A stretch of DNA of 64,000 bases from Escherichia coli (GTDB lineage Bacteria; Pseudomonadota; Gammaproteobacteria; Enterobacterales; Enterobacteriaceae). Below are positions 15,001 to 18,000 of this stretch, in pieces. The stretch lies in assembly GCF_030013595.1 (NCBI RefSeq), contig NZ_CP122768.1; one strand, 5' to 3'. A program made the position numbers. Positions within the stretch are counted from its first letter, which is position 1; each line of letters starts with the position of its first letter.

Positions 15001-18000
15001 GACATGAAAAAGCTGGGGTATGAGATGAAACACTTCCGGCGCTGGCTGTACAAGCTGGAAAGCGACGGCGTAATCGCTATTGACGGTGATTATGTGCGCC
15101 CACTGTAAAAAGTGAGGAGCAAAAGTGAGGATGGCGGGTAATTTAACAAAAAATCAACGCCACTCCTCACTTTCTCACCTGTATATAGGTCAAAAAGTGA
15201 GGAGTTAAAAACACATTGCAAAACAACAGATTACAACAATAAAGAAAACGACTGAGGAGCAGAACAAGAATAATAAAAAGTGAGGAACAAAAGTGAGGAA
15301 TGGTGAGTTAATAGAAATGAGGTAATAAAAATAACAGGTAGGTTAAAAAACACACCATGCAAGATATTAACTAAAACTTAACTATTTACCTCACTTTTGC
15401 GTATATATAAGGATTAAAAAGTGAGTACTTAAAAATACATTTAAAATCATATTGTTATTAACTTCATAAATTTTCACTGTGCAGCAGGTGAGGAATTAAA
15501 AAATCAGGAATGTTAAAAATGAAAACAGAATGTTGTGTCAGTGCCGTTGGGCAACGTAGCAACCAGTAAAAACGATGGGGCAAAGCATGACTAAGCTGAC
15601 CATTAACAGAAAACCGAAAGGCATTTACGGCACGCCGCAGAAAACGACGCAGGCGGCGCAGGAGCAGGATAAAACCACATCGGCGCATAAAGTGATGCCC
15701 GGTAACCAGAAAGCGCAGCAGAAGCCCACAGGGGCGACACCGTGGCGGCATATGACCAAACGCCAGCGCAAAAACCGCAGGCGCGTTAACCGCCTCACTG
15801 AGTTGTGGCCTGAATTATTCAGCCGGGAAGCACCGAAGCCGCTTAAGGTGGGGATATTCGACGACCTGATGCAGGATCTCGCCGTCAGGGGGCTGGCATT
15901 CGGTCCAGGGGCATTGCGTGCGACGCTGGCATCTTATGCGCAGTGTCCGCGCTATTACCGCGCCTTAATGGCTGGTGGGGTACGCTACGACCTGAAAGGC
16001 CAGCCGTGCGGCGAGGTGACACCACAGGAACAACAGGACGCCGAAACGCGGCTGGTGGCGCTGAATGAGAAGCGCAAACGTCAGCGCCGGGCAGCAAAGG
16101 AGAAAACAGGCGCATGATTCACGACAGCAAAGCGGAAGCACTGGAAGCGCGTGGTCTGTACCGGAGAGCGGCGGCGCGGTGGGCTGAGGTCATCATGCTG
16201 GCGAATGATGACAAGGCACGGGAACAGGCGGCAAAACGTCGCGCGGAATGTATCCGCAAGGCAGCACGCCCACCAGCAAGGCAGGATAATTTCGGGGAAA
16301 TGCGCGAAACCATCAGCCGGGCACATGCCGGGATGGGATTACATCAGCCCAATGGTAAGGCATTCAGGAAATACCCTGGATCGAAAAATTGCAGTCAGTG
16401 ACAGAAGCCGGGATTTTTCCCGGCTTTTTTGTGCCAGTAAAAAGCCCGCAGCCAGAAGTGTTGCGGGCTTTGTTTTTCAGGTGATTGAAGTCAATGGGAA
16501 GAACGCGATCATCATGCGTTATCGCTTCATAAATTGCAACGATGTAGATCGTTATTTCAGTTTGTGCAATCATAATCATTGTTTTGTTCAGGAGATATGA
16601 CTATGAGAAAAGCCAGCGTGAAACCCGTTTTACTCGCTCGTGATCAGATTGAAGCATTACAGCGCATCCAGGACGAGGAACGCCGCAATTCTCCGCTGGG
16701 GATTGCTCCGAGCATTCATGAGGTCGCCCGGCGTTTAATGCAGCGGGCGCTTTATCCCGTAGAACGTCCGGCCTGATGGTCGTGATTTTTTGGTGAAAAA
16801 AGAGAGGTGGTAAAAATGCCAGCAAGCAAAGAAGATTTGCGATTAAAACTGATGGAGGTGGTTAACGCTCTGTCAGAGTCGCAGGGCAGCACTCCGCAGG
16901 AGATTATCGAAATTCTGAATGCGATCCCCGCACAGGATTTCACAAAAGCGGACGAGGATGACGCGAATAAAAACATCGTCGCGTCAGTCGAAGATGAATC
17001 CTCACTGGCAGAAGCCCAGGCTAAAGCGGATTCCGCATACAGCAATATGGGCCGTCGCGCTCCAGCCCCGTTTGCTGGTGAAAAGTCGATGGATTACCGC
17101 AAGCGTGCATTAATTGGTGCACAGAAGCTGGCTAAAAAATTCAGTGATGTGGATATTCGTTCCGTTTCAGATTCTGCAACGCTGGCGGTGCTGGAAGATC
17201 AGATTTACCAGGCTGCAAAAGACAGTGTTCAGTGGGCTGTGGAAAATACGCCGGGCTATTTGCGTAAAACCGTAAGAATGGATGAAGCCGGACGGCGGAT
17301 TACTGAATATCAGGGGGATCCGAATAACTGGCTTAGTGCTTTCAAAATCCCTCCCCGTCGCCTGGTTAAAATTAACGTTGCAAGCCTCGCGGGGGCATGA
17401 AAAACGTGCTGATTTCAGCCCTGCCGGATTTGGTGGGGCTTATTGCTTATAACCGGGGGACATTATGCTTTTAACAGAAATTGAGGCGGCAAAGCAGATT
17501 CGGGACGGTCAGCTACCGTCGCCTTATCAGTTTTCCAACATGTGGCTGATTAACCTGCGTATCACAGGAACCGGAATGGCCTATCGCGCCGAAGAAAAAG
17601 AATTTGTCTGGCGTTCACCGCAAACTTATCTCAATCCGCAGTTCCTGGAACGTTGCGCCGGAGTACCCGTCATTATCGACCATCCCGAAAGCAAAACCCT
17701 TGAAGACGTGGGCGAACGGTCGCGCATTATTGGCACCGTTATGTTGCCGTATATTCGCGGTGACGAGGTGTGGGGCGTATGCCGGATTTACGGGCAGGAA
17801 ATCATCGATTACATCCAGAAAGCACGGGGGGAGGTATCCACCAGCCCGTCGGTTGTGTTTTGTGGTGCGTCCGGTGGGGCAGAAGTTCCTGATGTAATGG
17901 GCGAGGACAATTTTTTCATTGAGGGTACGCCATTTCTTATCGATCACGTTGCGCTCGTACCGTTGGGCGTATGGGATAAGGGCGGGAAACCATCAGGTGT

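What the first reader, a model, noticed from the sequence alone, without database searches (positions are those of the whole stretch)
15107..15500. Second non-coding array built from AAAGTGAGGA repeats
A 400-bp AT-rich stretch carries at least ten copies of AAAGTGAGGA (both orientations) and two longer units of the form TATATA..AAAAAGTGAG..TTAAAAA. It differs from the ori iterons and sits immediately upstream of the FinO-domain/PerC operon. It could be a multi-site enhancer or operator, a second cis-replication region, or a packaging signal.
Basis: seen in the sequence. Interest (0 to 1): 0.5.

Follow-up and report, generated by a model that had tools for sequence, protein, structure and literature searches.

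The report
Orphaned replication origin in phage satellite
The repeat array is a replication origin left behind when this phage-satellite island swapped its replication enzyme for another type that brought its own origin, so the array is a recombination scar rather than a new regulatory element.

Summary
The array is real. All six exact AAGTGAGGA copies in the 64 kb window lie in 15110-15299 (0.33 expected by chance), and five degenerate copies follow.

It is not tied to the FinO/PerC operon. In syntenic E. coli islands the same array starts at the stop codon of a full-length RepA-family (AAA_25) helicase. It stays with that gene when 3 kb of cargo separates it from ProQ/FinO. It is absent from islands with 97.6% identical ProQ/PerC that carry other replication genes, each with its own iterons.

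Across about 20 enterobacterial genera the layout recurs: direct iterons, an inverted iteron pair around a TATATA core, then more direct iterons. The iteron core tracks one residue of the helicase's C-terminal winged-helix-like domain: Asn with GTGAG, His or Lys with GTGGG, Ser with GTGCG. This held in 52 of 53 loci.

The window is the exception. A D5-type primase with its own GGTAGAT origin has replaced the RepA N-terminus, leaving 135 residues carrying His next to a GTGAGG array. A recombination breakpoint sits at 15031/15032.

Best reading: a PICI-type origin of the RepA replicon, orphaned here and probably silent unless an Asn-type RepA is supplied in trans. This is a known kind of element and of modest interest.

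The parts
12636..14384 (+). Intact replication protein of the island: a D5_N/DUF5906/Pox_D5 primase-helicase of 582 aa. Its N-terminal ~142 aa are 58% identical to the N-terminus of RepA helicases from sister islands.
   Evidence: Pfam; RefSeq annotation 'DNA primase family protein'; tblastn.
14390..14700 (.). First array: GGTAGA(T/C) iterons in both orientations. It is presumed to be the cognate origin of the primase-helicase.
   Evidence: A related primase in L080 is followed by GGTAGAC iterons.
14701..15108 (+). Remnant of a RepA-family (AAA_25) helicase gene: the C-terminal 135 codons plus the stop codon. Residues 74-134 model as a three-helix plus beta-hairpin (winged-helix-like) domain.
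   Evidence: RefSeq marks it as a pseudogene 'missing N-terminus' in the identical island. tblastn aligns it to RepA residues 337-471. AF2 model, with pLDDT 94-97 over residues 71-135. All low-rmsd Foldseek matches are winged-helix domains, but none is significant (E >= 0.14).
15031..15033 (+). His codon (CAC) just before the predicted recognition helix (K-H-F-R-R-W). This is the position that covaries with the iteron core. A recombination breakpoint lies between 15031 and 15032.
15107..15211 (.). Origin module 1. Two direct iterons (15109-15118, 15122-15131), two inverted iterons (15164-15173, 15174-15178), a TATATA core (15183-15188) and one direct iteron (15194-15203).
   Evidence: (I3, I8).
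15275..15310 (+). Direct iteron cluster: 15277-15286 and 15290-15299, plus a degenerate copy at 15301-15310.
   Evidence: (D4).
15388..15427 (.). Origin module 2: an inverted iteron (15388-15397), a TATATATA core (15402-15409) and a direct iteron (15418-15427).
   Evidence: (I1, I16).
15429..15477 (.). The most A+T-rich stretch of the array (at least 18 of 20 bases A/T throughout). It is a candidate unwinding region, together with the two TATATA cores.
15485..15494 (+). The last, degenerate iteron, CAGGTGAGGA.
15529..15579 (+). A 16-codon ORF that is a deletion scar. It keeps the ribosome-binding site and first codons of a 257-aa gene that lies between the array and ProQ in other islands.
15587..16401 (+). 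The downstream ProQ/FinO and PerC genes. They are not part of the origin cassette. Homology to islands with other replication cassettes resumes only at about 15571.

Best explanation
The array is the iteron-type replication origin of the RepA-helicase replicon used by one branch of an enterobacterial PICI-like satellite family.

In intact islands the proposed mechanism is as follows (inferred by analogy with SaPI Rep, not shown here). The RepA protein has a shared N-terminal domain, an AAA_25 helicase core and a C-terminal winged-helix-like domain. It would bind the AAAGTGAGGA iterons that begin at its own stop codon. The inverted iteron pairs that flank each TATATA core would position helicase on both sides of an easily melted site. 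The protein would then load itself and start replication.

In this window a cassette consisting of a D5-type primase-helicase and its GGTAGAT origin has replaced RepA residues 1-336. What remains is the 135-residue C-terminal stump and the complete RepA origin. A later recombination, with its breakpoint at 15031/15032, joined a His-type stump (the type that pairs with GTGGGG iterons) to an array taken from an Asn-type (GTGAGG) island.

The array is therefore an orphan. Its sequence is intact, but no matching initiator is encoded in cis. The island most likely replicates from the first array. The second array could fire only if an Asn-type RepA from another island were present in the same cell.
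For: SHOWN BY SYNTENY
- In L002, L004, L077-L079, L082 and L084-L087, a full-length RepA helicase of 469-471 aa follows the DUF4222 gene, and the array starts at its stop codon.
- In L085 and L086 about 3 kb of cargo lies between the array and ProQ, yet the array stays with RepA.
- The same slot holds other cassettes, each with its own iterons: a D5-type primase with GGTAGAC (L080) and a DUF927 protein with CGGGATAT (L081). In L080, ProQ/PerC is 97.6% identical to the window's.
- Homology among these islands resumes only at the ProQ ribosome-binding site.

SHOWN BY COMPARISON ACROSS GENERA
- Almost all RepA homologues recovered from about 20 enterobacterial genera are followed by an array.
- The loci mapped in detail share one plan: two or three direct iterons, an inverted iteron, a TATATA core, a direct iteron, a spacer, then a direct cluster.

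SHOWN BY COVARIATION
- The residue before F-x-R-W predicts the iteron core: Asn with GTGAG 23/23, His with GTGGG 8/9, Lys with GTGGG 15/15, Ser with GTGCG 5/5.
- Within E. coli the winged-helix regions of the two types can differ at essentially this one residue while every iteron differs: 7 intact Asn-type and 3 intact His-type islands.
- The residue sits at the N-terminal end of the third helix in the AF2 model.

SHOWN FOR THE WINDOW
- RepA is cut at residue 337.
- 15032-15580 is 100% identical to ETEC1747 (L087), which has an intact Asn-type RepA.
- 14701-15031 is L077-like (His type) and differs from L087 at 72 positions, the last of them at 15031.
- The window is the only mismatched pair among 53 loci.
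- No other RepA homologue lies in the 64 kb.

ESTABLISHED KNOWLEDGE
[quoted passage not shown] This replicon was shown to be functional for EcCICFT073 (PMC6092414).
Against: - No binding or replication assay exists for this RepA type. Origin function is inferred from position, architecture and covariation.
- The array is 100% identical to one next to an intact RepA, so it shows no decay. That fits a very recent event but does not prove loss of function.
- The fold search gave no significant match (best E = 0.14). 'Winged helix' rests on the model's topology and on the nature of the weak matches.
- His could in principle tolerate A at the variable iteron position.
- The covariation counts include related sequences, for example 14 Xenorhabdus loci, so they are not independent observations.
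- I did not check whether the source genome carries an Asn-type RepA elsewhere.
Confidence: 0.8

Rival explanations
1. The array is still a working second origin of this island. It would be fired either by the island's own D5-type primase-helicase or by the RepA C-terminal stump, expressed from the internal ATG at 14761 and acting as an origin-binding adaptor.
For: All iterons and both TATATA modules are intact. The stump is an open frame of 135 codons with a 115-codon ORF starting at an ATG. The primase and RepA share a homologous N-terminal domain of about 142 aa, which could in principle mediate cross-talk.
Against: - The primase has its own, unrelated iteron array.
- The stump carries His, which pairs with GTGGG in all 8 other His-type loci with a clear iteron class and with GTGAG only here.
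- By eye, no Shine-Dalgarno-like sequence precedes 14761.
- RefSeq annotates the stump as a pseudogene.
- In ETEC4090 the same junction is followed by a shorter stump and no GTGAGG array, so the array is dispensable in that lineage.
Confidence: 0.1
2. The array is a multi-site operator, enhancer or promoter region for the downstream ProQ/FinO-PerC operon.
For: It lies immediately upstream of the operon. Repeated sites in both orientations could serve as operators.
Against: - The array segregates with RepA and not with the operon.
- Near-identical operons (97.6%) sit behind completely different iteron arrays.
- The iteron sequence covaries with a RepA residue.
- No sigma-70-like promoter was found in 14300-15700, against 2.5 expected.
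- Genes of Gram-negative PICIs are transcribed in one direction from upstream (PMC6092414).
Confidence: 0.05
3. The array is a packaging signal (cos or pac), or it encodes a small RNA partner for the FinO-domain protein.
For: It is non-coding and structured, and it lies next to a ProQ/FinO gene.
Against: - There is no lambda cosN-like match in the island; the only match with up to 2 mismatches lies inside the primase gene.
- Rfam gives only sub-threshold microRNA-hairpin matches, which reflect the palindromes.
- Neither role explains why the array is absent from syntenic islands with the same ProQ, nor why it covaries with RepA.
Confidence: 0.03

Closest known systems
Replication origins of Gram-negative PICIs, such as the EcCICFT073 pri-rep-ori module (Fillol-Salom et al. 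2018, PMC6092414)
   Same: Both occur in an int-alpA island with all genes in one direction. In both, the origin lies immediately 3' of the replication initiator gene and is built from sets of short iterons around A+T-rich DNA. Cassettes are exchangeable among islands.
   Different: - Here the cognate initiator is a RepA/AAA_25 helicase with a C-terminal winged-helix-like domain, and it is truncated.
- The array is the second of two tandem origins.
- Its sequence is mismatched to the surviving stump.
- Function was not tested here.
SaPI Rep/ori (Rep1, Rep2, PriRep5; PMC9371898 and the work it cites)
   Same: In both, a self-loading initiator-helicase has a C-terminal winged helix that reads 5-6-nt iterons placed directly after its own gene. 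In both, iterons in opposite orientation flank an AT-rich melting region.
   Different: SaPI Reps are AAA+ enzymes related to SF3/MCM helicases. The protein here has a RecA-type AAA_25 core with only weak similarity to RSF1010 RepA (E = 0.034). The host is Gram-positive, and there is no sequence relationship.
PLE RepA/ori modules of Vibrio cholerae (Barth et al. 2021, PMC8263062)
   Same: The origin and the initiator's DNA-binding domain work only as a matched pair, and they are swapped as a module between satellites.
   Different: The PLE DNA-binding domain is N-terminal (RepA_N) and its iterons are ~30-bp semi-palindromes. No orphaned origin is mentioned in the passages I read.
Phage P4 ori plus crr
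   Same: Both are satellites with two separated cis-acting repeat regions near a D5/alpha-type primase-helicase.
   Different: In P4 both regions carry the same repeats and serve one initiator (from memory). Here the two arrays have unrelated iterons and belong to two different initiators. The P4-type repeat TGTTCACC (sequence recalled from memory) does not occur in the island.
Iteron plasmid origins (F, P1, pPS10, RK2)
   Same: Both have multiple directly repeated initiator sites next to an A+T-rich region.
   Different: There are no DnaA boxes or IHF consensus sites in the array. The iterons are about 10 nt rather than 17-22 nt. The initiator is itself a helicase.

Membership tests
PICI-type replication origin (SaPI and Gram-negative PICI ori) | Lies immediately 3' of the replication initiator gene | tested here: met
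   The array starts at the RepA stop codon in 10 intact E. coli islands and in most of 52 loci from other genera. In the window it starts at the stop codon of the RepA stump.
PICI-type replication origin (SaPI and Gram-negative PICI ori) | Several short iterons arranged in sets that flank A+T-rich DNA | tested here: met
   There are 11 GTGAG-core iterons in four groups. Two TATATA cores and a 49-nt stretch of at least 90% A+T lie between them.
PICI-type replication origin (SaPI and Gram-negative PICI ori) | Iterons in opposite orientation on the two sides of the melting region | tested here: met
   Inverted pairs lie at 15164-15203 and 15388-15427 around TATATA. The same module is present in Xenorhabdus, Morganella, Kosakonia, Rosenbergiella, Phytobacter, Trabulsiella and Hafnia.
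PICI-type replication origin (SaPI and Gram-negative PICI ori) | Iteron sequence is specific to the initiator's DNA-binding domain | tested here: met
   Tested by covariation only: 52 of 53 loci follow the residue-to-iteron rule. Binding itself was not tested.
PICI-type replication origin (SaPI and Gram-negative PICI ori) | An intact cognate initiator is encoded in cis | tested here: not met
   RepA is reduced to residues 337-471. The stump carries His next to GTGAGG iterons. No other RepA lies in the window.
PICI-type replication origin (SaPI and Gram-negative PICI ori) | Supports initiator-dependent autonomous replication | not testable with these tools
   This needs a plasmid-maintenance or copy-number assay.
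Gram-negative PICI (the island as a whole) | Integrase, AlpA regulator, genes in one direction, a rep-ori module, and a size of about 10-15 kb | tested here: met
   Integrase at 7169-8422. AlpA at 9576-9773, PF05930, E = 2.4e-19. The annotated genes from alpA rightward are almost all on the + strand. The island spans about 13 kb.
Gram-negative PICI (the island as a whole) | Induction and high-frequency transfer by a helper phage | not testable with these tools
   This can only be shown experimentally.
Operator or enhancer of the ProQ/FinO-PerC operon | Co-occurs with the operon it controls | tested here: not met
   ProQ/PerC 92-98% identical to the window's occurs without the array. Conversely, the array occurs 3 kb away from ProQ.
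P4 ori/crr pair | Both regions carry the same initiator-binding repeat | tested here: not met
   The two arrays share no repeat: GGTAGAT versus AAGTGAGGA. TGTTCACC is absent from the island.
Iteron plasmid origin | DnaA boxes and/or an IHF site next to the iterons | tested here: not met
   No TTWTNCACA or WATCAANNNNTTR motif occurs in 15101-15580.

The most novel reading that the evidence does not exclude
The orphan origin is kept because it works in trans. There are two versions of this idea. In the first, a co-resident island encoding an Asn-type RepA would fire it, so this island would be amplified whenever its neighbour is induced. In the second, its 11 iterons would soak up a rival island's RepA, giving satellite-against-satellite interference.

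Underlying either version is a one-residue recognition code (Asn for A, His or Lys for G, Ser for C at the variable iteron position). That code sets replicon compatibility among enterobacterial satellites and could be reprogrammed by a single substitution.
Probability: 0.1. Interest if true: 0.6.

Novelty: new member of a known kind. Interest (0 to 1): 0.35.

Why it matters
The finding itself is ordinary. Iteron origins directly after the rep gene are a defining, published feature of PICIs.

Three by-products may interest people who work on satellites and replicons:
- The slot between the DUF4222 gene and ProQ is a site where rep-plus-ori cassettes are exchanged. At least three unrelated initiators occupy it (RepA/AAA_25, D5-type primase, DUF927), and exchanges leave readable scars, including whole spare origins.
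- The RepA origin has a layout conserved across about 20 genera, in which only the iteron core changes.
- That change tracks a single residue at the start of the predicted recognition helix. This gives a directly testable specificity rule and a natural explanation for how several such islands can share one chromosome.

For annotation, the result warns that an intact-looking iteron array next to a regulatory operon may be a relic of a replaced replicon.

Tried and rejected
- **Promoter or operator reading.** The consensus scan found 0 sigma-70-like sites in 14300-15700 against 2.5 expected. Synteny also argues against it.
- **Non-coding RNA reading.** An Rfam E-value search of 14200-15800 returned only sub-threshold microRNA-hairpin matches caused by the palindromes.
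- **Packaging signal.** There is no lambda cosN-like site in the island. I did not search for other cos or pac types.
- **Plasmid-type origin.** There are no DnaA boxes or IHF sites.
- **P4 ori/crr analogy.** The two arrays share no repeat, and the P4-type octamer is absent.
- **Sequence search of RepA against solved structures.** It gave only a weak match to RSF1010 RepA (E = 0.034).
- **Foldseek search of the C-terminal model.** It gave no significant match (best E = 0.14). The winged-helix assignment therefore rests on topology and on the kind of weak matches, not on a significant score.
- **Simple block-recombination explanation for the all-GTGGGG array in L003.** I first thought its nearly identical stump argued against RepA as the binding protein. 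This was resolved when intact His-type RepA islands (L077-L079) turned up with the same iterons.
- **Source of the window.** I looked for it among complete E. coli genomes. Strain cq9 is 100% identical over 13600-16400, but its integrase and integration site differ, so the window comes from another strain.
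Full report
**1. The observation**

Exact AAGTGAGGA occurs six times in the 64 kb window, all between 15110 and 15299: five on the + strand and one on the - strand. Shuffled sequence gives 0.33 copies on average, and none of 100 shuffles reached six. Three one-mismatch copies lie at 15388 (-), 15419 (+) and 15486 (+). Counting the GTGAG core gives 11 copies.

Two 37-nt units, 15166-15202 and 15389-15425, each consist of an inverted and a direct iteron around a TATATA core (I1). G+C drops to 0.27-0.37 across the region. 'At least ten copies' is therefore true only when degenerate copies are counted.

**2. Surroundings**

The island has these parts:
- a tyrosine integrase at 7169-8422;
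- an AlpA regulator at 9576-9773;
- an AntA-family protein and a DUF4222 protein;
- a 582-aa D5_N/DUF5906 primase-helicase at 12636-14384;
- a first array of GGTAGA(T/C) iterons at 14390-14700;
- an open frame at 14701-15108;
- the array in question;
- ProQ/FinO at 15587-16117 and PerC at 16114-16401.

In an island identical over 13600-16400 (strain cq9), RefSeq calls 14701-15108 a 'helicase RepA family protein' pseudogene that lacks its N-terminus. tblastn aligns it to residues 337-471 of a full-length RepA.

**3. The array belongs to RepA, not to the operon downstream**

In syntenic E. coli islands a full-length RepA helicase follows the DUF4222 gene. It is 469-471 aa and has an AAA_25 core. 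The array begins at its stop codon. This is seen in A17, ARS-C101, HNSQ2209, ETEC1748, A19, UMNF18, CFSAN018748, WGI31CT, F9792 and ETEC1747.

In WGI31CT and F9792 about 3 kb of unrelated genes separate the array from ProQ, and the array stays next to RepA.

Conversely, ProQ/PerC genes 92-98% identical to the window's occur with no homology upstream of about 15571. In strain 129130 the slot holds a D5-type primase followed by GGTAGAC iterons. In ARS-C301 it holds a DUF927 protein followed by CGGGATAT iterons. Alignment shows that the islands become homologous again only at ACGATGGGGCAAAGCATG, the ProQ ribosome-binding site and start codon.

The slot therefore holds exchangeable cassettes of one replication gene plus its own iteron array. 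No sigma-70-like promoter is detected in 14300-15700, no Rfam family matches, and no DnaA or IHF motifs are present.

**4. Conserved origin architecture**

A scan of one genome per species returned 72 RepA-related loci from about 20 enterobacterial genera. In nearly all with a complete gene, an iteron array follows the stop codon.

The loci mapped in detail share one layout. Two or three direct iterons come first. A spacer of roughly 20-35 nt follows. Next comes an inverted iteron, 8-10 nt, a TATATA core, 8-10 nt and a direct iteron. After a further spacer there is a cluster of direct iterons.

Only the iteron core changes between lineages:
- GTGAGG in E. coli and Xenorhabdus;
- GTGGGG(G) in Serratia, Pectobacterium, Morganella, Trabulsiella and some E. 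coli;
- GTGCGG in Kosakonia, Phytobacter, Rosenbergiella and Enterobacter soli;
- GTGCGC in Hafnia.

The E. coli version carries the inverted-pair/TATATA module twice.

This matches published descriptions. For PICIs, the origin lies immediately 3' of rep, with sets of iterons flanking an AT-rich melting region, and it was shown to function for EcCICFT073 (PMC6092414). [quoted passage not shown]

**5. Covariation with the initiator**

In an alignment of the RepA C-terminal regions, the residue immediately before a nearly invariant F-x-R-W-L motif predicts the iteron core:

| Residue | Iteron core | Loci following the rule |
|---|---|---|
| Asn | GTGAG | 23 of 23 |
| His | GTGGG | 8 of 9 |
| Lys | GTGGG | 15 of 15 |
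| Ser | GTGCG | 5 of 5 |

These loci are related, so the counts are not independent. The E. coli pairs are the informative case. Their winged-helix regions can differ at essentially this one residue, yet every iteron in the array is GTGAGG (7 intact Asn-type islands) or GTGGGG (3 intact His-type islands) at the same positions.

An AlphaFold model of the 135-residue stump, built from 35 sequences, has pLDDT 94-97 over residues 71-135. It shows helices at 74-88, 95-104 and 112-121 followed by a beta hairpin at 125-134. The variable residue is 111, at the entry to the third helix.

Foldseek gave no significant match (best E = 0.14). All matches that superpose 60-75 residues at 2.2-2.6 Å are winged-helix domains, such as DtxR, OhrR, SelB and ORC. 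I treat the fold assignment as likely but not proven. That the residue contacts the variable base is inference.

**6. What happened in this window**

The D5-type primase and its GGTAGAT origin replace RepA residues 1-336. The two enzymes share a homologous N-terminal domain of about 142 aa (58% identity; no Pfam match). This domain may have provided the left-hand crossover.

The junction at about 14700 is found in only 5 of 5,426 complete E. coli genomes. In three of these (ETEC1732, ETEC1734 and ETEC4090; ETEC4090 was examined in detail as L088), the stump is shorter still. There the GTGAGG array has been replaced by the tail of another primase gene plus a GGTAGAC origin. The array is therefore dispensable in that lineage.

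The window's stump carries His, but the array is GTGAGG. It is the single exception among 53 loci.

Base-by-base comparison explains this. 14701-15031 is L077-like (His type) and differs from the Asn-type island of ETEC1747 at 72 positions. The last of those differences is 15031, the first base of the His codon (CAC versus AAC). From 15032 to 15580 the window and ETEC1747 are identical. So a recombination joined a His-type stump to an Asn-type tail and origin.

By the covariation rule, such a join would disable a working RepA replicon. It is seen only where RepA is already truncated.

**7. Mechanism and status**

Shown:
- position, architecture, cassette behaviour and covariation;
- the truncation and the mosaic junction.

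Inferred:
- RepA binds the iterons through its C-terminal domain, melts the TATATA cores and loads itself as a helicase;
- the island now replicates from 14390-14700;
- the second array is silent in cis and could respond only to an Asn-type RepA supplied by another island.

Some strains do carry two islands of different iteron type in one chromosome. ETEC4077 and ETEC4079 are examples. This shows that such islands co-reside.

I put the origin reading at about 0.9 and the 'orphan, inactive in cis' reading at about 0.75.

**8. Comparison and novelty**

The array is a member of the PICI-type origin class by position, iteron organisation and initiator covariation. It fails the criterion of having an intact cognate initiator in cis, and replication was not tested.

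It works like SaPI and EcCICFT073 origins, but the initiator core is a RecA-type AAA_25 helicase rather than an AAA+ enzyme. Its only structural relative found by sequence is RSF1010 RepA, weakly (E = 0.034).

Exchange of matched origin-plus-DNA-binding-domain modules has a precedent in Vibrio PLEs (PMC8263062). It is not a P4-style ori/crr pair, because the two arrays share no repeat.

Overall this is a new member of a known kind. The orphan-origin scar and the one-residue specificity rule are the parts I did not find described in the papers I read.

Noticed in passing
L007:4020-4400 (Xenorhabdus beddingii): One Asn-type RepA is followed by two complete arrays in tandem. The first is GTGAGG. 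The second is GTGGGG and has its own inverted-pair/TATATA module. Stacked origins of different specificity therefore also occur outside E. coli.
   Followed up: partly
window 12636-13061: The first ~142 aa of the D5-type primase are 58% identical to the first 143 aa of the unrelated RepA helicase of sister islands, and no Pfam family matches. This shared N-terminal domain on two different replication enzymes may be a docking domain and the left-hand recombination anchor.
   Followed up: partly
L088:3162-3925 (E. coli ETEC4090): Serial cassette scars lie in one island. In order they are: a primase, a GGTAGAT origin, an internal RepA fragment, the last ~110 nt of a different primase gene, and a GGTAGAC origin. 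ProQ follows.
   Followed up: yes
window 9421-9493: A 33-bp tandem repeat (TTACCATCACCCTTAGGGTAAATTTCCTCCCGA, 2.2 copies) lies just upstream of the alpA gene. It may be a regulatory site of the island's activator.
   Followed up: no
window 14450-14482: A perfect 14-bp inverted repeat with a 5-nt loop (CGCTGAATCCCTTG / CAAGGGATTCAGCG) sits among the GGTAGAT iterons of the first array (I3).
   Followed up: no
window 15529-15579: A 16-codon ORF keeps the ribosome-binding site and first codons of a 257-aa gene of unknown function. That gene lies between the array and ProQ in A17, ARS-C101, HNSQ2209 and ETEC1748, so this is a deletion scar.
   Followed up: partly
window 19911-20219: A second PerC-family gene (102 aa, PF06069, E = 4.5e-23) lies at the right end of the island, in addition to PerC at 16114-16401.
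   Followed up: no
E. coli ETEC4077 and ETEC4079 chromosomes (NZ_CP122648.1, NZ_CP122643.1): Each genome carries one island with a GTGAGG-type array and another with a GTGGGG-type array. This fits the idea that the two iteron types are compatible replicons.
   Followed up: no
L083:2697-3530 (E. coli 52F4): This is an independent truncation. The integrase and one other gene are followed directly by a 121-codon Asn-type RepA stump and a complete GTGAGG array, with the whole regulatory and replication module deleted.
   Followed up: partly
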